A DNA stretch of 63,163 nucleotides from Bacillota bacterium (GCA_022704525.1 JAKJGF010000001.1:1-63163); one strand, 5' to 3'. Positions 677-14,077 are shown, counted from the first letter of the stretch. Notes: generated by a model not told the origin, from the letters alone. Numbers and translations: made by a program.

Positions 677-2446
677 TTATCTCGTTTTTACAATACGAAA
701 ACCCAGGAAGATATTACAGCTATCAGGAAGAGAGGAATCCCTTTTTGTAGTTTTACAATCAGAGGCTTTACTGTTCCAGGAACCACCGCGGATAATTTTG
801 GTTGTTCCGGCAAGAGGACCGGATGGATTTGCCACTGTATCATCAGGATAACTGCTATACCAGTCACTGCACCATTCCCATACATTTCCAATTATATCAA
901 AAAGACCGAAAGGATTTGGTTTTTTAAGACCCACATCATGATGATTGCCTTTTGAATTAAGCGTATACCAGCAATAATCATCATTCATTTCATCTCCCCA
1001 GTAATACATGGTTTCCGTATTTCCCCTGCAGGCATATTCCCATTCGGCTTCCGTAGGGAGTCTGTATCCAAATTTTTTTCGCCATAAAGAGGGTTCACTT
1101 CCTCTATTATCCTTTGACCCATAACATAGTATAAGACTATCTTCAAGACTCAGCCAGTTACAATATGCCACGGCACCGTACCAGGTTACATTTACAACAG
1201 GTCTGTTCTCATAACCTCCTTTGACTTTAAAACCCCAGAAACTCTTTACTATACCACAGTATTGATTGACACTTATATTTATCCATGAAGAACCACCTTC
1301 ATTCTGATTTCCCTGAGAATTTAAGAATTTACAGAATTCTTTATTTGTTACAGGATGTTTATTCATATAAAATGGATTTACCTGTACCTTATGGATAGGT
1401 CTTTCTTCGGGATAATTATTATTTCCCATAAAAAATACTCCTCTGGGTATTAAAATCAGATCTGGATTTAGAAAAAAGGTCTGGCCGATTTTTTTACTAT
1501 TTTCGGTATCAATATCCGGACTTGAAGAATCTATTTTTATTTCTCTTTCCTCAGATTTTATTTTTATTCCTTCCAGAGCCTGGAGCATTTCTTTCGCGCT
1601 CTGAAATCTTTCATCAGGATTCTCCTGAAGGGATTTCATAACTGCCTCTTCAAGTTCGGGGGATACGGAAGTAATAACCTTTCTTAAAGGTTCAAATCTG
1701 AAAGGTATAGGAACTATTCCCGTAAGGAGATGATGTATTGTAGCTCCCAGAGCATATATGTCAGATCTCTTTTCCACCTTACCCTGACATTGTTCCAGAG
1801 GAGCATAACCATTTGTTCCTATGATAGTTTTTTCCGTACTATCTGCTTCATTTATTATCCTTGCTATACCGAAATCTACCAGCATTACTCTTCCGTCTTT
1901 ATGTAGCATAATGTTGTCAGGTTTCAGATCTCTATATATTATCGGTGGATTTTCACTGTGAAGATAATCCAGTAACTGGAGAATTTCTTTTGCCCATAGT
2001 AGGACTTTACTTTGAGGAAGGCCGGGGTTGCCTTCTCTTTTTAAGATTTTTTTCAAATCTTCTCCTTCTATAAAACTCATAACTATATAATATTTGTTAT
2101 TATTTATAAAATAATCAGAAACTACAGGAAGATTGGAATGATCAAGTCTGGAAAGTATTTTTGCTTCTCTGTTAAACCAGTTTCTTGCTCTTTCCTGTTC
2201 TTCTTCTGTCCCATAAGTATGAAGAAGTTCTTTTATAGCCCAGAATCTGTACAGTTTCATATCCAATGCTTTATATACTGCTCCCATACCTCCTGCTTTT
2301 ATGAGGCTAATTATTTTATAGCGGCCCTCAAGAATTACTCCTGCCTGCACAGGTTCATGTTCTGGCCTCAGTTTACTGCCACAGACCGTGCTGGTAATAA
2401 GACTGTCTTCATTCTCCTGGCTACATTTGCTACATAATACAGACAT
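677..2446 (-). CDS. Hanks-type Ser/Thr protein kinase with N-terminal zinc ribbon and C-terminal FGE-sulfatase (SUMF1/C-type-lectin-like) domain
   Basis: N-terminal CSKC...CGSKL. Kinase motifs GGMGAVYKA, AIKE, YRDLKPDNIM, DFGIA, GTNGYAPLE. C-terminal motifs NVTWYGA, LPTEAEWEYA, NVWEWCSDWY, RGGSWNS, LGFRIV are typical of formylglycine-generating-enzyme-fold domains. Confidence 0.85.
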   Translation of the reverse strand: MSVLCSKCSQENEDSLITSTVCGSKLRPEHEPVQAGVILEGRYKIISLIKAGGMGAVYKALDMKLYRFWAIKELLHTYGTEEEQERARNWFNREAKILSRLDHSNLPVVSDYFINNNKYYIVMSFIEGEDLKKILKREGNPGLPQSKVLLWAKEILQLLDYLHSENPPIIYRDLKPDNIMLHKDGRVMLVDFGIARIINEADSTEKTIIGTNGYAPLEQCQGKVEKRSDIYALGATIHHLLTGIVPIPFRFEPLRKVITSVSPELEEAVMKSLQENPDERFQSAKEMLQALEGIKIKSEEREIKIDSSSPDIDTENSKKIGQTFFLNPDLILIPRGVFFMGNNNYPEERPIHKVQVNPFYMNKHPVTNKEFCKFLNSQGNQNEGGSSWINISVNQYCGIVKSFWGFKVKGGYENRPVVNVTWYGAVAYCNWLSLEDSLILCYGSKDNRGSEPSLWRKKFGYRLPTEAEWEYACRGNTETMYYWGDEMNDDYCWYTLNSKGNHHDVGLKKPNPFGLFDIIGNVWEWCSDWYSSYPDDTVANPSGPLAGTTKIIRGGSWNSKASDCKTTKRDSSLPDSCNIFLGFRIVKTR

Positions 2447-2461
2447 TTAGCCTGATGCTCC

Positions 2462-5206
2462 TTAATTCACTATAAACTTTGTTGTACCAATTTTTATTTC
2501 GTCACCTGTGTTTAATTCAGTCATAATATCTATTTTTATTCCGTTTACATAAGTTTTATTTGTGCTTCCAAGATCTTCAATATAATATCTGTTATTCTTT
2601 CTTCTAATCTGAGCATGTATTGAAGATGTCTGCATATCGTAATCAAGACACAGATCATTCCCCGGGGCTCTTCCTATTTTAATATAATCTTTGTTAAGAG
2701 AGAAAGTGACTTTCTTTTTTCCCTCTCTCTCATATATCAATTCTTTTCCTTCCTGTGGCACATAAGGTATAGCCTTATCAATTGTATCTCTTGCCGGAAT
2801 CCCTTTAAAGGTAAATTTTACATTCCCAATCTTTATTTCATCATTTGTGTATAATTCAGTTCTGAAATCTATCCTGCTGCCATTAACATATGTTTTATTA
2901 CTACTTCTTAGATCTTCAATATAATATCTTCTGTCCTGTAATGTAATCTGTGCATGTATTGAAGATACCTGAAAATCATAATCAAGGCAGAGATCATTTC
3001 TTTTTGCCCTGCCTATTTTAATGCAATCTTTATTAAGTGGGAAAATTACTTTCCCTTTCCCCTCTCTGTTATATATGAGTTCACCCCACTCAGTGGAAAG
3101 CACTGCAGGAATAGTCCTGGAAGAAACTATGGTATGATCTTCCGTACTGATGGGAATCGGAATTACCTGAGAACTTTTATATTTTCCAGGTGAAATAATA
3201 GTTTTTTTATAGCTTTTTTCTTCTCTTAAAATCCCTGGTTCTGCTACAGCCATAGTTTTATCTCTTAAAATCCCTGGTTCTGCTACAGGCATGGTTTTAT
3301 CTTTTATGGGTGAGACAGCTTTTTTTTCAGGACTACCAGTATCTTTCTGAAGAGGTATTCCTTTTTTATCTTCTTCCTGTAGCTTTAATTCAGATTTTTT
3401 CTTTAATAATTCCATATGTGACGTAATTTCACTTTTTAATTTTTCTGATATATTTAACTTTGCTGCATTATTATAATACTCAAGGGCCTTATCCTCAAGT
3501 CCTGTTTTTTCGCAACATCTGGCCATGAACATGAGAATCTCGTAATTTTCTTTATCCAATTCCATAGCTTTTATATATTCCAGTTTCGCATTTAAATAAT
3601 CGCCTTTATTCTCATATTCTTTACCTGTATATATATGATCCTGAACTTTTTTACTACCGTGTATCTTTAAAAATTCATTTCTTATGTCCTGAATTGATTT
3701 GATTTTGTCTTTTACAGGGAATTCATTTTTTTTATCTTCAGTATCTTTCAGGCTTTCTGGCAGCTTTATATCTTTCTCTTTATTAACCGCCGGCATTTCA
3801 GGTCTGATTATTGTGAGTTCATCGTCATATTCTTCTTTTGAAGGAAGTCTTTTTTGTCTTTCCAGTATTTCATTTTTTATCTGCTCTGGTATATCCAGTT
3901 TTAGTACTTTAAAATACATCTCAGAAGCTCTATCATAAAAACCGAGTTTTTCAAAACACCTGGCAGTAGCTATAAAGATTTCATGGTTTTTCTCATCGAA
4001 TTCCATGGCTTTCATATATTCAAAGTTAGCATTAAAGAAATCTCCTTGATTTTCATATTCTTTAGCTCTGGATATATGATGGGTGGATTTTTTAATTGAT
4101 TGTAACTTAAGTAAATCATTCTTTATTTCCTGGATTGACTGATATCGCTCTTTCGGTTTAAATTCAAGTGCTCTGGATATAATTTTACTTAAGTGGTGTG
4201 ATGTGGAAGGATTTAGCTCTTCTACGGGAGGAAAATAAGGTATGAAATCCCTGGGGTGAGTTCTCGTAACTATATGAAAAACTGTTGCTCCCAGAGCATA
4301 TATATCACTTTTGGGTTCGGCTTTTCCGAGCCATTGCTCGGGAGGAGCATATCCTCCTGTAAGGAGAGCATACTGAGTTACCTGACCCTTAGAACCCTGA
4401 AAAAGTTTTGCTATTCCGAAATCGATTAATTTCAGTTCTCCCCCGGAAGTGATCATAATATTATCCGGTTTTAAGTCTCTAAAGATTATGGGTGCAGGGC
4501 GATTATGGAGATATTCTAAAACTTTACATATACTTAAAGCCCAGGTGATAATGGTATCTTCCGGAAAATACTCAGATCCTTTTAAATTTTTAATCATTTT
4601 AGCAATTGTTTCACCATGAATATAATCCATTACAAGGTATAATTTTTTCCCTTCAATAAAAAAGTCAGATATTCCCGGTATATTCGGATGTTCCAGAGTG
4701 GAAAGCATTTCTGCCTCAAGTCTGAAACTTCTCTCTATAACCTCATCAGGAATGTCAGCTTTCTGGTGCATTTCTTTAAGGGCCCAGTATTTACCGGGAA
4801 GGTTTAGATCCCGACTCAGGTATACCACGCCAAATCCTCCGGCAGCAATTCCATTGACTACTACATAACGGTTATTCAGGATTTTACCAATAGAAGGATA
4901 GGATGTGGCTAATTTTAATGTTTTTTCATTTTTATATTCCAGAACCATATAGAAGTATTCATCATCTATAAAAAAGTCCAGTATATTGGGATATCTGGTT
5001 TTAAAATCCATCTTTCTGGATTGTTCACGTTTTTCTTTGAATTCATTTATGATTGTTTTATAATATTCACCTGGATTGTCTATTTTTATCTGTTTGAATA
5101 GAAGTTGTATCTTTGTAGCACTATCTTCTACCAGATAGAAAGATGTTTTTTCTCCCGATGGAATAGTTTTTAAGATTTTATATTTATCCAATATTGAATT
5201 TGTCAT
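2462..5206 (-). CDS. Ser/Thr protein kinase with duplicated TPR-like modules and two C-terminal FHA domains
   Basis: 914 aa. The first ~100 aa look like a degenerate kinase N-lobe. The true kinase has GGFGVVYL, ALKEM, FRDLKPDNIM, DFGIA, GGYAPPE. There are two copies of a KEYEN.GD...A..EY.KAME.D module and two near-duplicate FHA units (IKIGRA..NDLCLDYD...SSIHAQI...RYYIEDL.S.NKTYVNG). A 36-nt tandem duplication near 3229-3300 encodes KTM(P/A)VAEPGILR twice. Confidence 0.85.
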   Translation of the reverse strand: MTNSILDKYKILKTIPSGEKTSFYLVEDSATKIQLLFKQIKIDNPGEYYKTIINEFKEKREQSRKMDFKTRYPNILDFFIDDEYFYMVLEYKNEKTLKLATSYPSIGKILNNRYVVVNGIAAGGFGVVYLSRDLNLPGKYWALKEMHQKADIPDEVIERSFRLEAEMLSTLEHPNIPGISDFFIEGKKLYLVMDYIHGETIAKMIKNLKGSEYFPEDTIITWALSICKVLEYLHNRPAPIIFRDLKPDNIMITSGGELKLIDFGIAKLFQGSKGQVTQYALLTGGYAPPEQWLGKAEPKSDIYALGATVFHIVTRTHPRDFIPYFPPVEELNPSTSHHLSKIISRALEFKPKERYQSIQEIKNDLLKLQSIKKSTHHISRAKEYENQGDFFNANFEYMKAMEFDEKNHEIFIATARCFEKLGFYDRASEMYFKVLKLDIPEQIKNEILERQKRLPSKEEYDDELTIIRPEMPAVNKEKDIKLPESLKDTEDKKNEFPVKDKIKSIQDIRNEFLKIHGSKKVQDHIYTGKEYENKGDYLNAKLEYIKAMELDKENYEILMFMARCCEKTGLEDKALEYYNNAAKLNISEKLKSEITSHMELLKKKSELKLQEEDKKGIPLQKDTGSPEKKAVSPIKDKTMPVAEPGILRDKTMAVAEPGILREEKSYKKTIISPGKYKSSQVIPIPISTEDHTIVSSRTIPAVLSTEWGELIYNREGKGKVIFPLNKDCIKIGRAKRNDLCLDYDFQVSSIHAQITLQDRRYYIEDLRSSNKTYVNGSRIDFRTELYTNDEIKIGNVKFTFKGIPARDTIDKAIPYVPQEGKELIYEREGKKKVTFSLNKDYIKIGRAPGNDLCLDYDMQTSSIHAQIRRKNNRYYIEDLGSTNKTYVNGIKIDIMTELNTGDEIKIGTTKFIVN

Positions 5207-5340
5207 TTAATTCAAACCTCTCCAGGTATTATATTCTTTGAATTTCTATAAAAATCCTGCCGAATACTGACGTGAGACGTGAAAGGTTAGAAAGCCTTAT
5301 TTTATATGGTGTAATACCAATTATTCATCAATTGTACTAA

Positions 5341-5535
5341 TAAAACAGCCTTGAGGCTACTCCAAAAAAATATGAATGCTTATACTTCTTTACCTGAGGC
5401 AATATCCTTTAAATTTCGTCATGAAATTAACTTAAAACTTCCTTTAAATACGCCATCTTTTTGTCCTTCGGAGAACTTCGTTTTTCCGTAGCCTTAAGGC
5501 TGTTTTACTACGTTTGATGGTAGATTGGTATAAGA
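5341..5535. repeat. interspersed intergenic repeat, family B, full copy
   Basis: AACAGCCTTGAGGCTAC...GTAGCCTTAAGGCTGTT terminal inverted pairing. The internal segment AATATGAATGCTTATACTTCTT...AACTTAAAACTTCCTTTAAATACGCCATCTTTTT recurs at 11153-11240 and 53565-53700. Confidence 0.65.
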
Positions 5536-5644
5536 TATTTTAAAATATGTACTTCCTATGTTTTGATTAGTAATGGTAATGTTTTTCCCTCATGGAAGAT
5601 AAACTCTTTTAAAGGAAAAATAATATTATTCTCGAATAGATATA

Positions 5645-5742
5645 GTGAGAAGTGAAAAGTGAAAAGAAGTGAAAAGTGAAAAGTGAAAAGAAGGGTACAT
5701 ATACTTTAAGTACTATATATATTATCGTCTCACCTTTCACCC
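5645..5742. repeat. GTGAAAAG heptamer/octamer array with inverted partner (family C)
   Basis: GTGAGAAGTGAAAAGTGAAAAGAAGTGAAAAGTGAAAAGTGAAAAGAAGGGTACATATAC... is followed by CGTCTCACCTTTCACCC. A related GACGTGAGACGTGAAAGG sits at 5269-5286. Related arrays occur at 19515, 31550 and 37214. Confidence 0.7.
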
Positions 5743-5769: not shown

Positions 5770-7050
5770 ATGGTAACTGACCATATAGTAAAATTGCGGG
5801 ATGCCCGTGAAGTTCTTAAAGAAATGAGTTTTGAAACCCGGGAACTTCAAAGAGGTTATGCTAACAGGGTACTAAGGATTGACATTACAAAAAATACTGT
5901 AGAGTTTCTTCCTGTCACAGAGGAAATGAAAAATCTGTGGACCGGAGGGAGAGGTTTTGATCTGTGGCTTATGTTTAAGGAAATTAATAGAAATACTAAA
6001 TGGGATAGTCCTGAAAATCCCATATGTTTTTCAGGAGGACCCCTGGGGGGAACCATATCTTTCCCCGGTTCTGGTAAAACGCTGGTTACAACCATATCAC
6101 CCCTTACAGATTCTGTTATGGACTGCAATGTAGGTGGATATTTCGGCCCTTATTTTAAGTTCCTTGGTTTTGATGCCCTCTGTATAGTCGGTAAAGCAGA
6201 TGATTATATTATTATAGTCATAGACGGAGTAAATAATAAAATTTCAATTGAAAAAGCACCTCTTGAAAGTAACGATTCCCATGTGATTTCAGAAGAATTG
6301 ACTTCTATGTATGCAGATAATGAGCTGGATATGAGAAATATCGCAGTTGTTTCATCAGGAAGAGCAGCAGAATATGCCCGTATGGGAATATTGAATTTTT
6401 CCTTCTGGGATTGGCGACGTGGTATTGCCCGTATGAAACAGGCAGGAAGAGGCGGTATTGGCACAGTATTTCGAAATAAAAAAATGAAAGCCCTTGTAGT
6501 AAAAAGTCTTCCTCTTAATCCTGCATGGAGAGTTGTAGAAAGTAAAATGGCAAAGACTTTCACAGATAATATATGCACATCTCACTGTAAAACAGATAGA
6601 GAGAGAATCTGTAAAATCATTGACAAATGGAATAGTAATCCTGAGTATATACTGGAAATGATGCAGGATATACAGAAGATGGAGCGTTATATTTCAAAGA
6701 CTGCCATTGATGAAATATGTAAAAAAACAGGAATGTCGAAGGGACAGCTTTATCATATTGCTACCTTCTATAAAGATTTTACCCTTAAGCCAGCGGGTGA
6801 AAAGGTCATTCAGGTCTGTTTTGGAACAGCCTGTCATGTAAAGGGAGCGTCGAAGTTACTTGAAACTCTAGAAAAAGAACTTGGTATTAAAAACGGAGAA
6901 ACAACTTCTGATGAGAAATTTACTCTCGAAGCTGTTCCTTGTCTTGGTTATTGCTCTATTGCCCCTGTTATAAAAATTGGAGAAGAAATTATAGGAAATG
7001 TCCGGCTAAAAGATGTTTCTAAAATTATTTCTGAGAGGCGTGGTAAATAA
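5770..7050 (+). CDS. fusion protein: aldehyde:ferredoxin oxidoreductase N-terminal domain + NuoE/HydC-like [2Fe-2S] thioredoxin-fold domain
   Basis: Residues 1-245 carry AOR domain-1 motifs (GGRGFDLW, NPICFSGGPLGGT, GSGKTLVTTISPLT, GGYFGPYFKFLGFDALCIVGKA, AGRGGIGTVFRNKKMKALVV). Residues ~280-426 carry NuoE-type motifs (VIQVCFGTACHVKG = Cx4C; VPCLGYCSIAPV = Cx3C). Confidence 0.8.
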   Translation: MVTDHIVKLRDAREVLKEMSFETRELQRGYANRVLRIDITKNTVEFLPVTEEMKNLWTGGRGFDLWLMFKEINRNTKWDSPENPICFSGGPLGGTISFPGSGKTLVTTISPLTDSVMDCNVGGYFGPYFKFLGFDALCIVGKADDYIIIVIDGVNNKISIEKAPLESNDSHVISEELTSMYADNELDMRNIAVVSSGRAAEYARMGILNFSFWDWRRGIARMKQAGRGGIGTVFRNKKMKALVVKSLPLNPAWRVVESKMAKTFTDNICTSHCKTDRERICKIIDKWNSNPEYILEMMQDIQKMERYISKTAIDEICKKTGMSKGQLYHIATFYKDFTLKPAGEKVIQVCFGTACHVKGASKLLETLEKELGIKNGETTSDEKFTLEAVPCLGYCSIAPVIKIGEEIIGNVRLKDVSKIISERRGK

Positions 7051-7051
7051 T

Positions 7052-8896
7052 ATGACACATTTAGAAACAATAGAACAAAAAGTTCAGGAAGAATTTAAAC
7101 AGTATAAAGAGATGCTTATGATATGTACAGGCACGGGATGTGTTACTGTAAAAAGTTTTAATGTCCGGGATAAACTTTCTGAAGAAATAAAGGCAAAGGG
7201 CCTTGAGAAGGATTATCTTATAGTGCCTACAGGATGTTATGGTTTTTGTGCCGCAGGTCCCATAATAGTAGTTCAGCCTGAAGGTATATTTTATCAGAAG
7301 GTTAAAGAAGAAGATGTAAAGGAAATTGTAGAAGAACATCTTATTAATGGAAAACCTGTGGAAAGACTCATGTACAGAGACCCTGTAAGTGGTGAAATCA
7401 ATGAGAAGATAGAAGATATAAAATTCTTTACGAAACAGAAACTTATTGCCCTTCGTAACAAAGGTCTTATAGATCCTGAAAACATAGAACATTATATATC
7501 CCGTGGTGGTTATAGAGAAATTCGCAAAATTCTGGAAGAAAATAATCCTGAAGGAGTTATAAATGAAATAATCGCCTCAGGTATAAGAGGCCGTGGAGGC
7601 GGCGGATTCCCTACAGGAGTAAAATGGCAATTATGTCGTAAAGCAGCTATTGAGAAAAAAGAAACTCCTACCGTCATATGTAATGGGCTGGATAGAACTG
7701 TTATTGAAACAGATCCCCATTCGGTTATTGAAGGTATGATGATAGGTGCTTTTGCTACAGGTGCACAGGAAGGTTTTATATATATCCGTAAAGAATTTGC
7801 CTTTGCTATAAAAAGACTGGAGAAAGCACTTGCCCAGGCAAGAAAATATGGATTTTTAGGTGATAATATATTAAACAAAAACTTTAAATTTGATATTAAC
7901 ATACACTTAAGTGCAGGTGCTTTTGTGTGTGGAGAATCTTCTGCTCTTATGGCTTCTATGTCAGGCCGTGTTGCAGAACCAAAGTCCAAGTATATACATA
8001 ATGTGGAACGAGGTTTCCGGGATAAACCTGCATTGCTTAATAATGTGGAAACATGGGCGAATATACCTGTGATTATTGAAAAAGGCGCAAAATGGTTTGC
8101 CTCTATAGGAACAGGTGATATAAGTGATAATCCTCTTAAAGGTTCTTCAGGAACAAAGATTTTTTCTCTTACAGGGAAGCTAAATAATACAGGTCTTGCA
8201 GAAGTACCTATGGGCACTACCCTGAGAGAAATTATTTATGACATAGGAGGAGGTATTCCTGGAGGAAAAAAATTTAAAGCAGTGCAGATAGGAGGCCCTT
8301 CAGGAGGATGTATCCCTGAAAGTTTACTGGATATAAAGGTGGATTTTGATACTCTTACAGAAGCAGGTACTATAATGGGTTCAGGCAATATGGTTGTAAT
8401 GGATGAAACAGCCTGTATGGTTGATGTAGCCCGTTATTTTGTCAATTTCCTCAAGGATGAGTCCTGCGGAAAATGTACTCCCTGTCGTGAAGGTCTTTAT
8501 GCTCTGAATAACATTCTTACAGGAATATGTAATGGAGAAGGGAAAGAGGAGGATATGAAATTCCTGGAAGAATTATCTGAAACTATTCAGGAAACAAGTT
8601 TCTGTCAGCTTGGGGCTACTTCTCCCAATCCTGTGTTATCTACAATTCGTTATTTCCGGGATGAATACGAAAAACATATAAGAGAAAAAAAATGTCCTGC
8701 CGGTGTATGTAAAGCTCTTATTTCATACAGTATACTTGAGGATAAGTGTATCGGATGTACTATGTGTGCTAAAAAGTGTCCTGTTAATGCAATAACAGGT
8801 GAAAATAAAAAGGTTCATGTCCTTGATAAGATTAAATGTATAAAATGTGGTATATGTTATGATGTCTGCCCGGTTGATGCCGTGGAAAGAATTTAA
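7052..8896 (+). CDS. NuoF/HydB-like NAD(P)H-binding flavoprotein subunit with N-terminal [2Fe-2S] domain and C-terminal 2x[4Fe-4S] ferredoxin domain
   Basis: The tracked ORF starts at 7013, but the ATG at 7052 (MTHLETIEQ) follows the upstream stop and fits better. Motifs: ICTGTGC...GCYGFCAAGP; GLIDPE; SGIRGRGGGGFPTGVKW (FMN/NADH site); ESCGKCTPCREG; CIGCTMCAKKCP and CIKCGICYDVCP. Confidence 0.85.
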   Translation: MTHLETIEQKVQEEFKQYKEMLMICTGTGCVTVKSFNVRDKLSEEIKAKGLEKDYLIVPTGCYGFCAAGPIIVVQPEGIFYQKVKEEDVKEIVEEHLINGKPVERLMYRDPVSGEINEKIEDIKFFTKQKLIALRNKGLIDPENIEHYISRGGYREIRKILEENNPEGVINEIIASGIRGRGGGGFPTGVKWQLCRKAAIEKKETPTVICNGLDRTVIETDPHSVIEGMMIGAFATGAQEGFIYIRKEFAFAIKRLEKALAQARKYGFLGDNILNKNFKFDINIHLSAGAFVCGESSALMASMSGRVAEPKSKYIHNVERGFRDKPALLNNVETWANIPVIIEKGAKWFASIGTGDISDNPLKGSSGTKIFSLTGKLNNTGLAEVPMGTTLREIIYDIGGGIPGGKKFKAVQIGGPSGGCIPESLLDIKVDFDTLTEAGTIMGSGNMVVMDETACMVDVARYFVNFLKDESCGKCTPCREGLYALNNILTGICNGEGKEEDMKFLEELSETIQETSFCQLGATSPNPVLSTIRYFRDEYEKHIREKKCPAGVCKALISYSILEDKCIGCTMCAKKCPVNAITGENKKVHVLDKIKCIKCGICYDVCPVDAVERI

Positions 8897-8908
8897 AGGA
8901 GGATAAAC

Positions 8909-10894
8909 ATGGCCGAAAAGATTCAAATTTCAATAAATGATAAAATAGTTAAAGTAAATAAAGATACATATCTGTTAGATGCTGTTAAAAAGGCAGGTTT
9001 TGGTATTCCCACATTATGTTACCATAAAGATCTGACTCCTGACGGTAATTGCCGTCTTTGTACCTGTGAAATAGAAATAAAAGGTCGCAGGAAATTTGTT
9101 ACAGCCTGTAATTATCCCATCAGGGATGAAATCAGGGTTTTTACTGATTCAAAAAGGGTTAAGGAACATAGAAAATTACTTATAGAAATGTACCTTGGCC
9201 GATGGCCAGAGGTTCCCATAATTCAGAAGATAGCAAAAAGACTGGGAGTAACAGAAAGCAGATTTAAGAGTTCCGTAACTGATGATAACCCTGCTGCCTG
9301 TATTCTCTGTGGTCGTTGTGTCAGAGCATGTAAAGAGTTTATGCTGGAGGAAATCCTCGGCTTTGCCGGACGTGGTATTAAACGTCATATGACTATGCCT
9401 TTTTACGAGGTTGACCCTCATTGTATTGGTTGTACCTCCTGTGCCTATGTATGTCCTACAGGAGCAATTAAGATAGTGGATGATTTAAATAATCCCTTTG
9501 ACCCTGTAATGATTAGAAACCACGGTATGAAGATAAATGCTGAAATGGCTACTCTTGATAAAATACAGAATCGTATGCGTGAGGTTGGAACGGCAAATAT
9601 AGTTGATGTAATGAATGCCTATGATTTATTACCTGTACATAATTACAAATTTGGAAGTCATCCTGAAACTTATAAGATTGACTCTAAAATGTTAAAGGCA
9701 AAATATTTTACCCAGGGCATGGCAGATGGATGTTGGAAAGGCTGTTCTATGGCCTGTGCCAAAACTGTGGATGGCTTTAGATTAAAGACAGGACCTTACA
9801 GAGGACAGTTAGTCTCTGTTGACGGTCCTGAATATGAGACTGCTGCAGGGGCTGCAAATATGGGTTGTTTTGATGGAGATTTTCTTGTAGAATTTAATTT
9901 TTACTGTGATACATACGGAATAGATACAATCTCTGCTGCTACAACAATAGCTTTCGTTATGGAAGCCTTTGAAGCCGGTATTATAACAGAAAAACATACA
10001 GGTGGATTAAAACTTAATTTTGGTGCACTTCGAGAAGTCCTTGAATTACTTCATCAGATGGCAGAGGGTAAAGGCTTTGGTGTGGATGTGGGACAGGGAA
10101 TAAGATGGCTTAGAAAGAAATGGGTTAAAGAATATGGTGCAGATGAAAAGTTTCTTTGTGATATAAGTACCGAATCAAAAGGTCTTGAAATATCCGAATA
10201 TATGACAAAGGAATCTCTTGCTCAGCAGGCAGGTTACGGTCTTGCCAATAAAGGGCCGCAGCATGATGAGGCATGGCTTATTTTTATGGATATGGTAAAT
10301 AATCAGCTCCCTACCTTTGAAGATAAGGCTGAAGCTCTTTATTATTTTCCTCTCTGGAGAACCTTGTTTGGCCTTATGGGACTCTGTAAGATCATATGGA
10401 ATGATATAGTTCCTGCAAATAACAAATTTGAAAAGGAAGCGGCTAAAATTCCTGAGCATGTAAATAACTACTTTAAATTTTTTGAAGGTATGACAGGGAA
10501 AGAATTAAATGAACAAAAGATGTTACTTCAGTCAGCTCGTGTATATAATCTGCAAAGAATAATGAATCTTATGCTTGGTTTTGGCACACGAGAGCATGAT
10601 ACAATGCCCTATCGTGCAAAGGGACCTGTTACAAAGGAAGAATATGTATCAAGAGCAGAGCGTTATGATAAACAGCTTAAAGAAATCCTGGGAGTTGATC
10701 CTGAAGGTAAATCTACAGAAGAGAAAATGGCAATTCTGCGCAAATATCGTGAAGAACAGTATGAAAAGGTAACAGATGCAGTATTTAAACGAAGAGGATG
10801 GACAAAAAACGGTGTCCCTACAATTGAAAGACTTAAAGAGCTTGGAATTGATCTTCCCGAATTGATTGAGATAATTAAGAATCATCAAGAATAG
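8909..10894 (+). CDS. fusion protein: NuoG-N-terminal-like [2Fe-2S]/[4Fe-4S] module + aldehyde:ferredoxin oxidoreductase catalytic domains 2-3
   Basis: RBS AAAGGAGG lies upstream. N-terminus: IPTLCYH...DGNCRLCTCEI (Fer2_4-type), CILCGRCVRAC, CIGCTSCAYVCPTGAI. From ~residue 215 there are AOR C-terminal motifs (CWKGCSMACAK, VDGPEYETAAGAANMGCFD, CDTYGIDTISAATTIAFVMEAFE, GYGLANKGPQHDEAW). Confidence 0.8.
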   Translation: MAEKIQISINDKIVKVNKDTYLLDAVKKAGFGIPTLCYHKDLTPDGNCRLCTCEIEIKGRRKFVTACNYPIRDEIRVFTDSKRVKEHRKLLIEMYLGRWPEVPIIQKIAKRLGVTESRFKSSVTDDNPAACILCGRCVRACKEFMLEEILGFAGRGIKRHMTMPFYEVDPHCIGCTSCAYVCPTGAIKIVDDLNNPFDPVMIRNHGMKINAEMATLDKIQNRMREVGTANIVDVMNAYDLLPVHNYKFGSHPETYKIDSKMLKAKYFTQGMADGCWKGCSMACAKTVDGFRLKTGPYRGQLVSVDGPEYETAAGAANMGCFDGDFLVEFNFYCDTYGIDTISAATTIAFVMEAFEAGIITEKHTGGLKLNFGALREVLELLHQMAEGKGFGVDVGQGIRWLRKKWVKEYGADEKFLCDISTESKGLEISEYMTKESLAQQAGYGLANKGPQHDEAWLIFMDMVNNQLPTFEDKAEALYYFPLWRTLFGLMGLCKIIWNDIVPANNKFEKEAAKIPEHVNNYFKFFEGMTGKELNEQKMLLQSARVYNLQRIMNLMLGFGTREHDTMPYRAKGPVTKEEYVSRAERYDKQLKEILGVDPEGKSTEEKMAILRKYREEQYEKVTDAVFKRRGWTKNGVPTIERLKELGIDLPELIEIIKNHQE

Positions 10895-10906: not shown

Positions 10907-10940
10907 AAGGGTAATGAGTCATACTCATTACCCTTTATTA
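10907..10940 (+). terminator. rho-independent terminator of the AOR/Nuo-like operon
   Basis: Perfect 13-bp stem AAGGGTAATGAGT / ACTCATTACCCTT with a 3-nt loop, followed by TATTATT. Confidence 0.75.
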
Positions 10941-11152
10941 TTCAGGTGGAAATCGGAGATATTTTTATTTAACCATATTCTATGGAATAAGGTCAGAATT
11001 TGCCGTTAATATGTCAATATCTTCCGTTATAAAATCTTTATCCAGTGAGTCATACAAAAACGGTTAGGTCTGGAAGGAAAAGAAATGAAATTTTTGCCGT
11101 AATTATACAGGTTCCTTCGGAATTCTGTACTGAAGGCCTCTTGAGTTTTTGT

Positions 11153-11240
11153 GGAATCAACTTAAAACTTCCTTTAAATACGCCATCTTTTTTTCCCGTA
11201 GCCTCAAGACTGTTTTTACTACGTTTGATTGGTATAAAAG
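11153..11240. repeat. family B repeat, partial (3' half) copy
   Basis: AATCAACTTAAAACTTCCTTTAAATACGCCATCTTTTTTTCCCGTAGCCTCAAGACTGTTTTTACTACGTTTGATTGGTATAA closely matches 5436-5535. Tracked ORF 11045-11266 lies on it and is probably not coding. Confidence 0.65.
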
Positions 11241-11403
11241 GTTTTACGGAATTTTTTGTTTCATAGAATTCACATATCTGTCTGTGATATAATAAATTAT
11301 AACAGATAAATTATGGATTGTAATATAGAAAAAAATAAAAAATAATATTATGAAAAAAGATCTATTAAAGAGATATATTAACACCGGAACAGGAAGGTGA
11401 ATT

Positions 11404-12003
11404 ATGAAGGACTTATTTTCCCGCAATGTACCGGGTACAACGGAAATACTTCAAAAATCCTGTATTGGAATTGCAGGTTGCGGAGGTCTTGGTTCCAATG
11501 CCGCCATAGCCCTTGTAAGATCCGGTGCCGGTAATCTGATTATCGTAGATTATGATATAGTGGAGGAGTCAAATCTTAACAGACAGCAGTTTTTTTACTC
11601 CGATACAGGCAAAAAGAAGGTAGAAGCCCTTTCTTTTTATCTTAAGGCCATTAATCCCCGGGTGAATGTTATTTCTCATGATTGTGAAATAACACCTCAG
11701 AATGTGGCAGCACTTTTTGGCTCTGCAGATTTATTAGTTGAAGCCTTTGACAGAGCAGAAAGAAAGAAATGGCTTATTGAGAGCTGGTCCAGGGCTTTTC
11801 CCAATAAACCCATCATATGCGGAAACGGTCTTTCTGGCGTCGGCCATATAGAAGATTTAAAGATAACAAAGATAGGAAATATTTATTTCTGCGGCGATGG
11901 GAAAACTGATATGTCTATGGGTCTCTGTGCTCCGAGAGTCGCTATTGTGGCAAATATGGAAGCCTGTATGGCTATTGAGGTGCTGGTAAATTCATATAAA
12001 TAA
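11404..12003 (+). CDS. thiF: ThiF/MoeB/HesA-family E1-like adenylyltransferase (short ThiF type)
   Basis: 199 aa. Rossmann/ATP motif IAGCGGLGSNAAIALVRSGAG, then VDYDIVEESNLNRQ. The size fits the short ThiF family, but assignment to thiamine versus molybdo/tungstopterin sulfur transfer is not decidable. Confidence 0.65.
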   Translation: MKDLFSRNVPGTTEILQKSCIGIAGCGGLGSNAAIALVRSGAGNLIIVDYDIVEESNLNRQQFFYSDTGKKKVEALSFYLKAINPRVNVISHDCEITPQNVAALFGSADLLVEAFDRAERKKWLIESWSRAFPNKPIICGNGLSGVGHIEDLKITKIGNIYFCGDGKTDMSMGLCAPRVAIVANMEACMAIEVLVNSYK

Positions 12004-13651: not shown

Positions 13652-13692
13652 ATCAATAAAAAAATAAAACTTATGTTTTACTTTTCATATAA

Positions 13693-14051
13693 CTCCCCGA
13701 GCTGGACTCGAACCAGCAACCTAGCGGTTACGATCTGACTTCAGTTACCTGAAGAGTCGGACTTTTTCTTTACCCGCCTATCTGATGATAGGGTAGGGTA
13801 GCGGGTGTAAAGTCTCTGCACTTGCCCTCTACCATTTTTCTGATAGATGCTAGCTCAAGATTGTCCGGTAATCTCATAACCCGGATTTCCTTGAATTAGC
13901 CCGCTTTTCACTCTAACATTTCTATTAGAGGCTGCTAACTTGGCATGAATTTTTCTATGGCAATTTGCACATAAGATCTATCAGCTTTTGCCATAAAATT
14001 TCCTCATACCACCGGCACAGCCGCTTGCTCTGCCAATTGAGCTATCGAGGA
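13693..14051 (-). tRNA. tRNA-Asn(GUU), split by a group I intron (exon 1 14051-14017, exon 2 13730-13693)
   Basis: The joined exons give UCCUCGA UA GCUC AAUUGGCA GAGC A AGCGG CUGU|UAA CCGCU AGGUU GCUGG UUCGAGU CCAGC UCGGGGA G. This is a 73-nt cloverleaf with all stems paired (one G-U), discriminator G73 and anticodon loop CUGUUAA. CCA is not encoded. Confidence 0.85.
13731..14016 (-). ncRNA. group I intron (IC3-like tRNA-anticodon intron), 286 nt
   Basis: The 5' exon ends in U and the intron ends in G. An internal guide GCAGCC (plus-strand 13930-13935) pairs with exon GGCUGU, placing G-U at the splice site. The core strings GGUGCAGAGACU.., GCUACCCUA, GGGUAAAGAAAAAGUCC, UUCAAGGAAAUCC and AAUCUUGAGCUAGC resemble, from my memory, the cyanobacterial tRNA-Leu intron core. 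Confidence 0.8.
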
Positions 14052-14077
14052 ATTTATTACTTATTACAGCGGGGAAA

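What the first reader, a model, noticed from the sequence alone, without database searches (positions are those of the whole stretch)
5770..10894. Aldehyde:ferredoxin oxidoreductase split in two, each half fused to NADH-dehydrogenase (NuoE / NuoG-N) modules around a NuoF-like subunit
Seen in the sequence: gene 1 is AOR domain 1 (pterin-saddle domain motifs up to AGRGGIGTVFRNKKMKALVV) fused to a NuoE/HydC-type [2Fe-2S] domain (CFGTAC...CLGYC). Gene 2 is a NuoF/HydB-type flavoprotein (GRGGGGFPTG, ESCGKCTPCREG) with an extra N-terminal [2Fe-2S] domain and a C-terminal 2x[4Fe-4S]. Gene 3 is a NuoG/HydA-N-terminal-type [2Fe-2S] plus 2x[4Fe-4S] module fused to AOR domains 2-3 (GPEYETAAGAANMGC, DTYGIDTIS).

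From established knowledge, canonical AORs are single ~600-aa polypeptides reduced by ferredoxin. The NuoE/F/G-N trio is the NAD(H) module of HydABC-type (Bfu-family) bifurcating hydrogenases and formate dehydrogenases.

My inference is that the tungsto/molybdopterin AOR catalytic unit here replaces the H-cluster or FDH domain. That would give an NAD(P)+-linked and possibly flavin-based electron-bifurcating aldehyde (or other) oxidoreductase. The domain 1 / domain 2-3 split with reciprocal fusions is not an arrangement I know to be characterised. A ThiF/MoeB-family gene follows at 11404.
Basis: partly seen in the sequence, partly recalled or inferred. Interest (0 to 1): 0.7.

Follow-up and report, generated by a model that had tools for sequence, protein, structure and literature searches.

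The report
Split tungsten aldehyde oxidoreductase on Bfu core
A tungsten-type aldehyde-oxidising enzyme is cut in two at a domain boundary and each half is fused to a subunit of an NADH/ferredoxin electron-splitting module; this forms a widespread but overlooked three-gene variant of a known five-subunit enzyme, and this particular copy has lost part of its NADH pocket.

Summary
Three co-oriented genes encode AOR domain 1 fused to BfuC/NuoE (g1), a full BfuB/HydB flavoprotein (g2), and a WorA-like BfuA N-module fused to AOR domains 2-3 (g3). ThiF lies downstream.

The split is real. The same arrangement occurs in about 70 species-level MAGs from at least 12 phyla, and the exact g2 protein was found in at least 6 independent samples. 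The cut falls exactly at the AOR domain 1/2 linker. All Fe-S ligands and the AOR catalytic residues are invariant across the family. Split forms are monophyletic next to a large clade of unsplit ~718-aa AORs.

The closest known system is the five-subunit bifurcating WorABCSL (Class IV WOR). This family has no WorS polyferredoxin and no intact WorL. Published WOR censuses required both AOR domains in one protein, so they excluded it.

Its nearest relative shares the deletion, and g2 is still under purifying selection (dN/dS 0.19). NAD+ coupling is therefore likely for the family but doubtful for this copy.

Verdict: a new variant of a known kind, of moderately high interest.

The parts
5770..7050 (+). 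g1 (426 aa): AOR/WOR domain 1 fused through a flexible tether to a BfuC/NuoE/HydC-type [2Fe-2S] subunit
   Evidence: Pfam finds AFOR_N and 2Fe-2S_thioredx. At least 120 clusters at 90% identity have the same architecture. The AF2 model has pLDDT 82. Its N-half matches WorL domain 1 (rmsd 3.3 A) and its C-half matches WorC (TM 0.82).
5770..6504 (+). g1 residues 1-245: AOR domain 1 (pterin saddle), carrying the equivalents of PfAOR R76 (K103), N93 (N120), R182 (K223) and R186 (R227)
   Evidence: The alignment to 1aor is. These residues are invariant in 65-66 of 66 family members. Homology to the unsplit sister AORs ends at ...KALVVKS.
6505..6597 (+). g1 residues ~246-276: tether of variable sequence and low predicted confidence between AOR domain 1 and the BfuC domain
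   Evidence: AF2 pLDDT blocks here are 48-57. The sequence varies across the family.
6598..7047 (+). g1 residues ~277-426: BfuC/NuoE domain with C1 [2Fe-2S] ligands C350, C355, C391 and C395
   Evidence: The best PDB matches are HydC 8a6t_C (E 4e-37) and WorC 9mqx_C (E 4e-34). The ligands are invariant in 66/66 members.
7052..8896 (+). g2 (614 aa from ATG 7052; the ORF is open from 7013): full-length BfuB/HydB-type flavoprotein with ligands for B5 [2Fe-2S], the FMN Gly-loop, B1, the B2/Zn site (C468, C506, H555, C561, C566) and the B3/B4 dicluster
   Evidence: It scores 707 bits to T. maritima HydB, 696 to A. mobile NiFe-BfuB and 675 to WorB over the full length. All ligands are 53-55/55 conserved. 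The start is set 1 nt after the g1 stop.
7679..7696 (+). Site of the in-frame 8-residue deletion in the BfuB NADH-binding signature. The window reads ICNG|LDR where the family consensus reads VCN(A/G)DEGDPGA(F/Y)MDR.
   Evidence: The deletion is seen. The signature and its Bfu-specific A202/M204 are defined in Schut 2022 Suppl. Fig. 10. The nearest relative L081 shares the deletion. dN/dS for g2 is 0.19.
8909..10894 (+). g3 (661 aa): WorA-like BfuA N-module fused directly to AOR domains 2-3
   Evidence: Pfam finds Fer2_4, a Fer4 dicluster and AFOR_C. The 120 top clusters have the same architecture and none has AFOR_N. The fold search gives AOR structures plus WorA. An AGGAGG ribosome-binding site precedes the ATG.
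8909..9487 (+). g3 residues 1-193: BfuA N-module with A1 [2Fe-2S] (C37, C48, C51, C67) and two [4Fe-4S] clusters (C131/134/137/141 and C172/175/178/182). There is no His-ligated third [4Fe-4S], as in WorA.
   Evidence: The best PDB hit is WorA 9mqx_A (E 7.5e-39, residues 3-192 to 3-188). The ligands are invariant in 54/54 members.
9488..10891 (+). g3 residues 194-661: AOR domains 2-3 with [4Fe-4S] ligands C275, C279, C283 and C493 and catalytic-site residues T228, Y309, E310, Y431 and H452 (PfAOR T243, Y312, E313, Y427, H448)
   Evidence: The alignment to 1aor is. These residues are invariant in 54/54 members. Homology to the unsplit sisters resumes at NNPFDPVMIRNHG.
10907..10935 (+). 13-bp hairpin followed by a T-run: a likely intrinsic terminator of the g1-g2-g3 transcript
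   Evidence: Found by the terminator scan.
11404..12003 (+). ThiF-family adenylyltransferase, the only broadly conserved neighbour and a likely pterin-cofactor maturation factor
   Evidence: NF006395 scores 221.6 bits against a cut-off of 159. It lies downstream in 31 related loci, at a median distance of 53 nt. ThiF/WorX next to WOR genes is described in PMC13328260.

Best explanation
The three genes encode a heterotrimeric, WorS-less relative of the electron-bifurcating tungsten aldehyde oxidoreductase WorABCSL. A BfuC-BfuB-BfuA(N) cassette interrupts the catalytic WorL/AOR subunit exactly at its domain 1/domain 2 linker. AOR domain 1 is therefore the N-terminus of the BfuC subunit (g1), and AOR domains 2-3 are the C-terminus of the BfuA N-module (g3).

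Inferred mechanism: g1-N and g3-C re-associate around a bis-pyranopterin cofactor, probably with tungsten, and the AOR [4Fe-4S] cluster. An aldehyde is oxidised to its acid. Electrons then pass from the AOR [4Fe-4S] directly into the two [4Fe-4S] clusters and the [2Fe-2S] of the fused BfuA module, without the polyferredoxin wire of WorABCSL, and on to B1 and FMN in g2. In typical family members the electrons are then split between NAD+ at the FMN and ferredoxin via C1 (in g1), B2 and B3/B4.

In this window's lineage the NADH-binding loop of g2 has been excised, while every Fe-S ligand and the FMN Gly-loop are kept under purifying selection. This copy most likely no longer uses NAD(H) normally. 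It probably delivers electrons to ferredoxin through the Bfu-derived Fe-S/FMN chain.

What is shown: the architecture, the conservation, the distribution, the position of the split and the loop loss. What is inferred: subunit assembly, the metal, the substrate, the electron path, bifurcation, and the functional consequence of the loop loss.
For: Domain content is established. The two halves, rejoined in silico, align to PfAOR as one continuous match (E 1e-48, 169.5 bits against about 82-85 for each half) with the break at PfAOR ~211-217. The cut is clean relative to the unsplit sister AORs. All cofactor ligands and AOR active-site residues are invariant. g2 is a full-length BfuB with ligands for B1-B5 and the diagnostic His. 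The family consensus carries the Bfu signatures A202/M204/F282 and shares GESSALM with A. mobile WorB. The g3 N-module is closest to WorA and has the same cluster complement. Synteny is conserved in about 70 species-level MAGs, with intact joints in 72/72 and 59/60 loci. The tungstate transporter WtpABC plus MoeA/MoaA lie next to the operon in about 8-10 loci. ThiF is a conserved neighbour. There is no conserved polyferredoxin neighbour. WorABCSL provides a biochemical precedent. The loop deletion is real: it is found in at least 6 samples, is shared with relative L081 and is followed by purifying selection, with omega 0.19 overall and 0.06 in the ferredoxin-side dicluster domain.
Against: There are no biochemical data for any member, and all carriers are uncultured MAGs. 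The AOR moiety is only about 21-30% identical to characterised AORs and matches no curated equivalog, so the substrate is not established. Two PfAOR pterin-contact positions differ invariantly (K450 to E, D489 to G). The AF2 models give low confidence for the dicluster region and the g3 joint, so direct cluster-to-cluster transfer is not verified, and no multimer model could be made. Even for WorABCSL, an endergonic step has been questioned (PMC12096430). The effect of the loop deletion on NAD(H) and FMN binding is inferred from motif knowledge only.
Confidence: 0.6

Rival explanations
1. The complex, including this window's copy, is still a genuine NAD+- and ferredoxin-coupled (bifurcating) aldehyde oxidoreductase. 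The 8-residue loop excision is tolerated and only tunes nucleotide affinity or specificity.
For: The FMN Gly-loop GRGGGGFPTG, the F282-type motif and all Fe-S ligands are retained. The flavin domain is still under purifying selection, with omega 0.23. The same excision arose independently in L024, which suggests a viable alternative state.
Against: The deleted segment, DEGDPGAF, is the core of the motif that Schut et al. label the NADH-binding domain, and it holds the Bfu-specific A202. From established complex I work, it also contains the invariant acidic residues that line the FMN/nicotinamide pocket in NuoF/Nqo1. Members with loop deletions are the most divergent at otherwise conserved g2 positions (16-44 deviations against a median of 1). 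Other family variants have lost the site altogether.
Confidence: 0.2
2. The family is a non-bifurcating enzyme. The Bfu-like module only distributes electrons to NAD+ or ferredoxin independently, or acts as a plain NAD+-dependent AOR comparable to AorABC.
For: Aldehyde oxidation (about -560 mV) can reduce both acceptors exergonically (Table 1). A review notes that only electron distribution has been proven for WOR1. The NADH site is evolutionarily labile in this family.
Against: Non-bifurcating homologues lack B2-B5 and the signature residues, whereas this family keeps all of them. For A. mobile WOR1 neither acceptor was reduced without the other.
Confidence: 0.15
3. The pterin site acts on something other than a simple aldehyde. 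Examples are glyceraldehyde-3-phosphate in a GAPOR-like central-metabolic role, or a reductive reaction driven by NADH plus reduced ferredoxin as in the BamB complex.
For: The AOR clade is uncharacterised, about 110 residues longer than PfAOR, very highly conserved across phyla (62-100% identity) and below every curated cut-off. There are weak GAPOR hits. K450E and D489G are clade-specific changes.
Against: The residues typical of aldehyde-oxidising WORs (T243, E313, Y427, H448) are invariant. The GAPOR score is 25 bits against a cut-off of 1300. BamB matches domain 1 only by sequence. No CoA-ester or glycolytic gene context was found.
Confidence: 0.15
4. The split is an artefact (chimeric assembly, frameshift or pseudogene) of an ordinary AOR gene next to NuoEFG genes.
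For: No tool result supports this. A priori, metagenomic contigs can be chimeric.
Against: Identical proteins and gene order were recovered from at least 6 independent samples. About 70 species-level genomes have the same joints. All three genes are under purifying selection. The cut falls precisely at a domain linker with nothing lost.
Confidence: 0.01

Closest known systems
WorABCSL (Wor-Bfu, Class IV WOR) of Acetomicrobium mobile / Eubacterium limosum; PDB 9mqx
   Same: It has a tungstopterin AOR-family catalytic unit coupled to a BfuABC core. Here the BfuA module is closest to WorA (E 7.5e-39) with the same A1 + 2x[4Fe-4S] complement. BfuB has a full cluster set and shares the GESSALM motif. 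BfuC matches WorC (TM 0.82). ThiF-type maturation genes lie nearby.
   Different: WorABCSL has five separate subunits with an intact WorL of WOR clade 87, a WorS polyferredoxin 'nanowire' and 1:3 stoichiometry. The family here has three genes, no WorS, WorL split at the domain 1/2 boundary and fused to BfuC and BfuA (which implies 1:1:1), and an AOR moiety from a different ~718-aa clade that is only about 21-27% identical to WorL. The window's BfuB also lacks the NADH-site loop.
HydABC-type [FeFe]-hydrogenases and other 'Type 1' Bfu enzymes (Schut et al. 2022)
   Same: The catalytic domain is fused to the C-terminus of the BfuA N-module. The gene order C-B-A matches T. maritima hydCBA. g2 is most similar overall to T. 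maritima HydB (707 bits).
   Different: The catalytic domain here is AOR domains 2-3 instead of the H-cluster domain. Part of the catalytic unit (AOR domain 1) sits on BfuC. No such reciprocal fusion is described for Type 1-4 Bfu enzymes. The BfuA module lacks the His-ligated cluster.
Unsplit ~718-aa AOR clade (Aminicenantes, Bacteroidales, Anaerolineae and other MAGs; loci L070-L078, P0121-P0240)
   Same: These proteins are 51-63% identical across both halves. They share the clade traits: CxxxCxxxC cluster spacing, K450E, D489G, R76K, R182K, an N-terminal extension and greater length.
   Different: They are single polypeptides with no adjacent Bfu genes, and they are themselves uncharacterised. 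Split forms make a separate monophyletic group in the NJ tree.
Pyrococcus furiosus AOR (1aor), the Class I WOR archetype
   Same: It has the same three-domain fold. The [4Fe-4S] cysteines, the first pterin motif DxxGxD, and T243/Y312/E313/Y427/H448 are conserved.
   Different: It is a 605-aa homodimeric single chain that reduces ferredoxin directly. It shares about 23-30% identity. Its second pterin motif Asp and K450 are not conserved here.
AorABC of Aromatoleum aromaticum (Class III) and BamBCDEFGHI benzoyl-CoA reductase
   Same: Both are AOR-family W enzymes wired to NAD(H) through extra subunits. BamGHI is homologous to BfuCBA.
   Different: AorABC uses an FAD subunit and a polyferredoxin. 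Bam uses Hdr-like subunits and performs ring reduction. Both have intact catalytic subunits.

Membership tests
AOR/WOR family (WorL catalytic subunit) | N-terminal (IPR013983/PF02730) and C-terminal (IPR001203/PF01314) AOR domains | tested here: met
   PF02730 has E 1e-46 in g1 and PF01314 has E 1.6e-92 in g3. The rejoined halves align to 1aor as one stretch.
AOR/WOR family (WorL catalytic subunit) | Both domains on one polypeptide, the criterion used in the published WOR censuses | tested here: not met
   The domains lie on g1 and g3, separated by g2. The census criterion is quoted.
AOR/WOR family (WorL catalytic subunit) | Four Cys ligands of the AOR [4Fe-4S] (PfAOR C288, C291, C295, C494) | tested here: met
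   g3 C275, C279, C283 and C493 are invariant in 54/54 members. The spacing is CxxxCxxxC rather than CxxCxxxC.
AOR/WOR family (WorL catalytic subunit) | Residues typical of aldehyde-oxidising members (T243, E313, Y427, H448) | tested here: met
   T228, E310, Y431 and H452 are invariant in 54/54 members. The criterion is taken from PMC13328260.
AOR/WOR family (WorL catalytic subunit) | Two DxxGL(C/D) pterin-binding motifs | tested here: inconclusive
   The first motif is present (D334...D339). In the second, Asp is replaced by Gly488 in all split and unsplit clade members.
AOR/WOR family (WorL catalytic subunit) | Tungsten bis-pyranopterin cofactor | not testable with these tools
   The support is indirect only: WtpABC, MoeA and MoaA lie beside the operon in about 8-10 related loci, and ThiF is conserved downstream.
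Bfu family (Schut et al. 2022) | BfuB with B1-B5 cluster ligands, including the B2 His absent from non-bifurcating homologues | tested here: met
   B5 is C38/43/75/79. B1 is C485/488/491/531. B2 is C468/C506/H555/C561/C566. B3/B4 has 8 Cys. All are 53-55/55 conserved.
Bfu family (Schut et al. 2022) | BfuC with the C1 [2Fe-2S] | tested here: met
   g1 C350, C355, C391 and C395 are invariant in 66/66 members. The fold matches WorC with TM 0.82.
Bfu family (Schut et al. 2022) | NADH-binding signature CN(A/G)DEGDPGAFMDR with A202/M204 | tested here: not met
   The window's g2 reads ICNG--------LDR. The family consensus meets this feature in 49/55 sequences. The signature comes from Suppl. Fig. 10.
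Bfu family (Schut et al. 2022) | FMN-domain signature GAGAF(282)VCGE and the Gly-rich FMN loop | tested here: met
   The window has SAGAFVCGESSALM and GRGGGGFPTG.
Bfu family (Schut et al. 2022) | BfuA N-terminal domain feeding the BfuBC core | tested here: met
   g3 residues 1-193 carry A1 plus two [4Fe-4S] clusters and are closest to WorA.
Bfu family (Schut et al. 2022) | Mutually dependent reduction of NAD+ and ferredoxin | not testable with these tools
   This needs a biochemical assay.
Class IV WOR (WorABCSL) | WorS polyferredoxin subunit | tested here: not met
   The operon has only three genes. No conserved Fe-S-rich neighbour was found in 72 loci.
Class IV WOR (WorABCSL) | Intact WorL belonging to WOR clade 87 | tested here: not met
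   WorL is split. The AOR moiety scores only 138 bits to WorL 9mqx_D, at about 21-27% identity, and its unsplit sisters form a distinct ~718-aa clade. Placement in the published 92-clade tree was not possible.
Class IV WOR (WorABCSL) | WorABC (BfuABC) module encoded with the WOR genes | tested here: met
   All three modules are present and are fused or adjacent.

The most novel reading that the evidence does not exclude
This is an unrecognised sixth class of tungsten oxidoreductase. It would have arisen when a whole bfuC-bfuB-bfuA' cassette was inserted in frame into the interdomain linker of an AOR gene. The catalytic pterin site would then be built across two subunits of the bifurcating core. 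AOR domain 1 would be tethered to the BfuC subunit whose [2Fe-2S] domain swings during bifurcation, which could couple substrate turnover mechanically to the bifurcation gate. The family would also contain a natural series of lineages, including this window's, that have switched off the NAD branch and turned a bifurcating enzyme into a ferredoxin-only one.
Probability: 0.2. Interest if true: 0.8.

Novelty: new variant of a known kind. Interest (0 to 1): 0.62.

Why it matters
First, the census. The published WOR and Bfu surveys seem to have missed a conserved family that spans at least 12 phyla and at least 120 clusters at 90% identity. Those surveys required both AOR domains in one protein, and annotation pipelines label the pieces 'NuoE', 'NuoF' and 'AOR'. 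As a result, metabolic reconstructions of Cloacimonadota, Krumholzibacteriota, Aminicenantes, Elusimicrobiota and other lineages probably misread these genes as complex I fragments plus an AOR.

Second, mechanism. A three-gene Wor-Bfu with fixed stoichiometry and no polyferredoxin would be a much simpler system than WorABCSL. It could be used to study how a low-potential third substrate is fed into the Bfu core.

Third, natural variation. Some lineages have an excised or degenerate NADH site but intact Fe-S chains. These offer ready-made comparisons for testing whether NAD+ coupling is obligatory.

Fourth, evolution. The arrangement is an unusually clean case of two reciprocal fusions created at a single domain linker.

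Tried and rejected
- **Chimeric assembly or pseudogene.** Rejected because of multi-sample recovery, conserved joints and dN/dS.
- **WorX (ThiS-like) gene between g3 and ThiF.** None was found. That interval holds a terminator and a partial MITE-like repeat.
- **Moco/Tuco riboswitch or other RNA element upstream.** No Rfam hit lies near the operon.
- **Metabolic clues from window neighbours.** Only kinases, a peroxiredoxin and housekeeping genes were found, and no Wtp/Moco genes are in the window.
- **Conserved neighbours across 72 loci.** Only ThiF is broadly conserved. WtpABC and Moco genes are lineage-restricted.
- **AF2 of g1 and g3 to judge joint rigidity and cluster proximity.** The domain folds were confirmed. 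The dicluster region and the g3 joint have low confidence and no coordinates or multimer are available, so this was not decisive.
- **Expectation that the reduced variants (P0244, P0247) keep the NADH site while losing the ferredoxin branch.** Not borne out. Their Gly-loop and NADH motifs are also degenerate.
- **Assigning the AOR moiety to a curated family (YdhV-type, GAPOR).** Scores are far below the cut-offs.
- **Literature searches for a described split or fused AOR.** Nothing was found. PMC8639347 was not available. The Bfu supplement held as text lacks the clade membership table.

Full report
**Observation.** The region holds three co-oriented, tightly packed ORFs.
- g1 (5770-7050, 426 aa) combines PF02730 AFOR_N (residues 33-245, E 1e-46) with a NuoE-type PF01257 [2Fe-2S] domain (282-422, E 3e-44).
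- g2 (ORF from 7013) is a NuoF/HydB-type protein. It has an N-terminal thioredoxin-like [2Fe-2S] domain, the Complex1_51K FMN domain, SLBB, NADH_4Fe-4S and a C-terminal 2x[4Fe-4S] domain.
- g3 (8909-10894, 661 aa) combines Fer2_4 and a dicluster ferredoxin domain with PF01314 AFOR_C (207-647, E 1.6e-92).

The real g2 start is almost certainly ATG 7052, 1 nt after the g1 stop codon. Homologues align only from residue 14-17 onward, and a GAGAGG motif precedes that ATG. g3 has an AGGAGG ribosome-binding site. A strong hairpin terminator follows g3. The gene at 11404 is a ThiF equivalog (221 bits against a cut-off of 159), not MoeB.

**It is real and conserved.** The g1 fusion architecture is found in at least 120 protein clusters at 90% identity, and so is the g3 architecture. 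These clusters share 58-86% and 68-85% identity with the window proteins. In one-genome-per-species reference contigs, about 70 MAGs carry g1-g2-g3 in the same order. Their labels include Vulcanimicrobiota/Eremiobacterota (the closest, 78-80%), Krumholzibacteriota, Aminicenantes/Acidobacteriota, Elusimicrobiota, Cloacimonadales, Myxococcota, Sumerlaeota, Fibrobacterota, Eisenbacteria, KSB1 and Bacillota. AFOR_N and NuoE lie in one ORF in 72/72 loci. NuoG-N and AFOR_C lie in one ORF in 59/60 loci, and the exception is a 2.25x-coverage contig. The window's exact g2 protein lies on 9 contigs from at least 6 independent samples, flanked by the same g1 and g3. This disposes of the chimeric-assembly objection. 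No carrier is a cultured organism.

**Anatomy of the split.** When g1(1-262) and g3(197-661) are joined in silico, they align to P. furiosus AOR as one continuous match (query 31-635 to 1aor 5-554, E 1e-48, 169.5 bits). The join falls at PfAOR ~211-217, which is the domain 1/domain 2 boundary. Nine loci fetched with g1 encode unsplit ~716-aa AORs that are 51-63% identical to both halves. Against these, g1 homology ends at '...KALVVKS' (residue ~245) and g3 homology resumes at 'NNPFDPVMIRNHG' (residue ~194). No AOR residues are lost. In an NJ tree the split forms are monophyletic beside the unsplit sisters.

The unsplit sister clade is large, with at least 120 clusters mostly from Aminicenantes and Bacteroidales. 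It is annotated only generically and has no Bfu genes next to it. The simplest reading is a single event in which a bfuC-bfuB-bfuA' cassette came to lie in frame inside the interdomain linker of an AOR gene. The cassette order matches the CBA order of known operons. A duplication-degeneration route through an L-C-B-A~L intermediate cannot be excluded. This evolutionary reading is an inference.

**Cofactor sites.** The following are invariant, or nearly so, across 54-66 family members:
- the domain 1 pterin/Mg contacts in g1: K103, N120, K223 and R227, equivalent to PfAOR R76, N93, R182 and R186;
- the C1 [2Fe-2S] cysteines in g1;
- A1 and both [4Fe-4S] clusters of the BfuA module in g3;
- the AOR [4Fe-4S] cysteines C275, C279, C283 and C493;
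- the residues typical of aldehyde-oxidising WORs: T228, Y309, E310, Y431 and H452, equivalent to PfAOR T243, Y312, E313, Y427 and H448 (the criterion is quoted).

Because pterin-contact residues sit on g1 and the rest of the site on g3, a functional active site requires the two chains to associate. Two PfAOR contacts differ invariantly (K450 to E, D489 to G). These are clade traits shared with the unsplit sisters. The AOR moiety is only about 21-30% identical to any solved AOR and falls far below every NCBIfam equivalog cut-off. It therefore belongs to an uncharacterised WOR clade, and its substrate is inferred rather than known.

**The electron-transfer module.** g2 aligns over its full length to structurally characterised bifurcating BfuB subunits: T. 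maritima HydB (707 bits), A. mobile NiFe-BfuB (696) and WorB (675). It has ligands for B5, B1, the B2/Zn site (C468, C506, H555, C561, C566, mapped by the gapless offset to NiFe-BfuB C438/C476/H525/C531/C536) and B3/B4. Schut et al. state that non-bifurcating homologues lack B2-B5 and that His. The g3 N-module is closest to WorA of the A. mobile WorABCSL structure (E 7.5e-39). Like WorA, it has [2Fe-2S] plus two [4Fe-4S] and no His-ligated cluster. The g1 C-domain matches HydC and WorC. The family consensus of g2 carries the Bfu-specific signatures of Schut's Supplementary Figure 10 (CN(A/G)DEGDPGAFMDR with A202/M204, and GAGAF282VCGE). It shares the unusual GESSALM motif with A. mobile WorB.

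**Comparison with what is known.** An electron-bifurcating tungsten aldehyde oxidoreductase built on a BfuABC core is already known: WorABCSL, also called Wor-Bfu or Class IV WOR. It has been purified, and it reduces NAD+ and ferredoxin only together. Cryo-EM shows one WorABC 'plug' fed by three WorSL units through polyferredoxin nanowires. What differs here is the architecture:
- there is no WorS gene in the operon and no conserved polyferredoxin neighbour in 72 loci;
- WorL is split, and its halves are covalently fused to BfuC and BfuA, which implies 1:1:1 stoichiometry and direct hand-over from the AOR cluster to the BfuA clusters;
- the AOR comes from a different clade.

The 2021 and 2026 WOR censuses selected proteins that contain both IPR013983 and IPR001203, so this family was excluded by construction. 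Their five classes and two Class IV operon types (SLCBA and CBASL) do not include it. No mention of a split or fused AOR was found in the WOR/Bfu papers or in genome papers on the carrier phyla. One preprint counts 'AOR' and 'NuoEFG' separately.

The window's g2 lacks eight residues, DEGDPGAF, of the NADH-binding signature. It reads ICNG|LDR, and the junction lies between nt 7687 and 7688. Of 55 full-length family members, 49 have the complete motif, including the window's 78%-identical relatives L001-L004. Loop deletions also occur in L024 (the same eight residues, arisen independently), L026, L063 and L060, and in the g1-g2 fusion type P0241.

The window's g2 deviates at 16 of 214 columns that are at least 95% conserved, against a family median of 1. 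Its g1 and g3 deviate at 2 each. The other loop-deleted members are the most deviant of all, with 23-44 deviations. The deletion is not an error, because it appears in at least 6 samples. It is shared by the nearest relative L081, whose g2 is 85.9% identical. Between these two lineages g2 is under purifying selection. Omega is 0.19 overall, 0.23 in the flavin domain and 0.06 in the C-terminal dicluster domain. For comparison, g1 is 0.16 and g3 is 0.10.

The loop-less protein is therefore functional but altered. From established work on complex I NuoF/Nqo1, this acidic loop lines the FMN/nicotinamide pocket. I infer that NAD(H) use is lost or strongly changed in this lineage, while the Fe-S/FMN chain to the ferredoxin-side clusters is kept. 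More degenerate variants exist. P0244/P0247 and loci L061/L065/L066 lack the C1 domain, B5, B3/B4 and recognisable FMN/NADH motifs. This shows that the NAD branch is evolutionarily labile in this family, whereas the AOR and the proximal Fe-S chain are not.

**Metal and maturation.** ThiF is the only broadly conserved neighbour (31 loci, median 53 nt downstream), in line with the reported association of thiF/worX with WOR genes. In about 8-10 loci, mostly Krumholzibacteriota, the operon is divergently adjacent to the tungstate transporter WtpABC (WtpA 310 bits against a cut-off of 243), followed by MoeA and MoaA. MobB lies upstream in three others. This supports tungsten but does not prove it. 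The window itself has no such genes, no ThiS-like WorX and no informative metabolic neighbours.

**Structure predictions.**
- g1 (pLDDT 82, pTM 0.64): two well-folded domains joined by a low-confidence tether at residues ~246-276. The halves match WorL domain 1 (rmsd 3.3 A) and WorC (TM 0.82).
- g3 (pLDDT 75, pTM 0.73): confident for the [2Fe-2S] domain and most of AOR domains 2-3, but poor across the dicluster region and the joint at 190-194. The fold search returns AOR structures and WorA.

These models confirm the folds. They cannot show inter-cluster distances, and no multimer prediction was possible.

**Verdict.** The finding is a genuine, conserved and apparently undescribed architectural variant of a known system, a split and WorS-less Wor-Bfu. 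The family probably couples aldehyde oxidation to ferredoxin and NAD+ reduction. The window's own copy has probably lost normal NAD(H) coupling. Confidence is about 0.9 that it is a functional AOR-Bfu complex with a reconstituted split active site. Confidence is about 0.6 for the full mechanistic statement, including aldehyde as substrate and ferredoxin as acceptor. It is about 0.2 that this particular copy still bifurcates to NAD+.

Noticed in passing
window ~13692-14052 (- strand); intron 13738-13957: A group I intron (RF00028, 80.5 bits, E 7e-19) interrupts the anticodon loop of a tRNA-Thr(CGU) gene. ARAGORN finds the tRNA only when long introns are allowed (286-nt intron at position 35).
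   Followed up: partly
window 5338-5510 and 11137-11246: This is a MITE-like element with ~30-nt terminal inverted repeats. It folds at -52 kcal/mol (z = -4.3). It lies upstream of g1, and a partial second copy (93% over 45 nt) lies between g3 and thiF. These are the only two copies in the window, so the operon is bracketed by them.
   Followed up: partly
window 5644-5691 and ~5729: Tandem GTGAAAAG repeats (2 x 24 nt, 96% identical) lie about 80 nt upstream of the g1 start, and an inverted TCACCTTTCAC lies nearby. They may be regulator-binding sites.
   Followed up: no
L081:3535-4384; L001-L004 between the g2 and g3 homologues (e.g. L002:11396-11869): In the closest relatives, a small 70-aa ORF plus a PIN-domain gene (PF01850), likely a toxin-antitoxin pair, is inserted between g2 and g3. 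The window lacks this insertion.
   Followed up: partly
P0241, P0244, P0246-P0248; loci L057/L058, L061, L065, L066, L064: Architectural variants of the family exist. Some are g1-g2 fusions that lack the BfuB N-terminal [2Fe-2S] domain. Others are strongly reduced forms that lack the NuoE [2Fe-2S] domain, B5, B3/B4 and recognisable FMN/NADH motifs, yet are still paired with a normal g3.
   Followed up: partly
L076:7609-7902 and L078:7557-8000: Two of the nine unsplit sister AORs have a small ORF with three CxxCxxCxxxC motifs immediately upstream. It may be a WorS-like or ferredoxin partner, so the sister clade may include heterodimeric forms.
   Followed up: no
window 677-2446 (-), 2462-5206 (-), 20682-23138 (-), 23326-24876 (+): The area has an unusual density of Ser/Thr protein kinases. 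One is fused to an FGE-sulfatase domain, one to two FHA domains and one to TPR repeats. A separate TPR + FGE-sulfatase-domain protein is also present.
   Followed up: no
window 14552-16021 (+): A 489-aa, highly charged coiled-coil-like protein carries tandem 'EKKGEVKKHE' repeats and has no Pfam match. It causes a strong local GC/AT skew.
   Followed up: no
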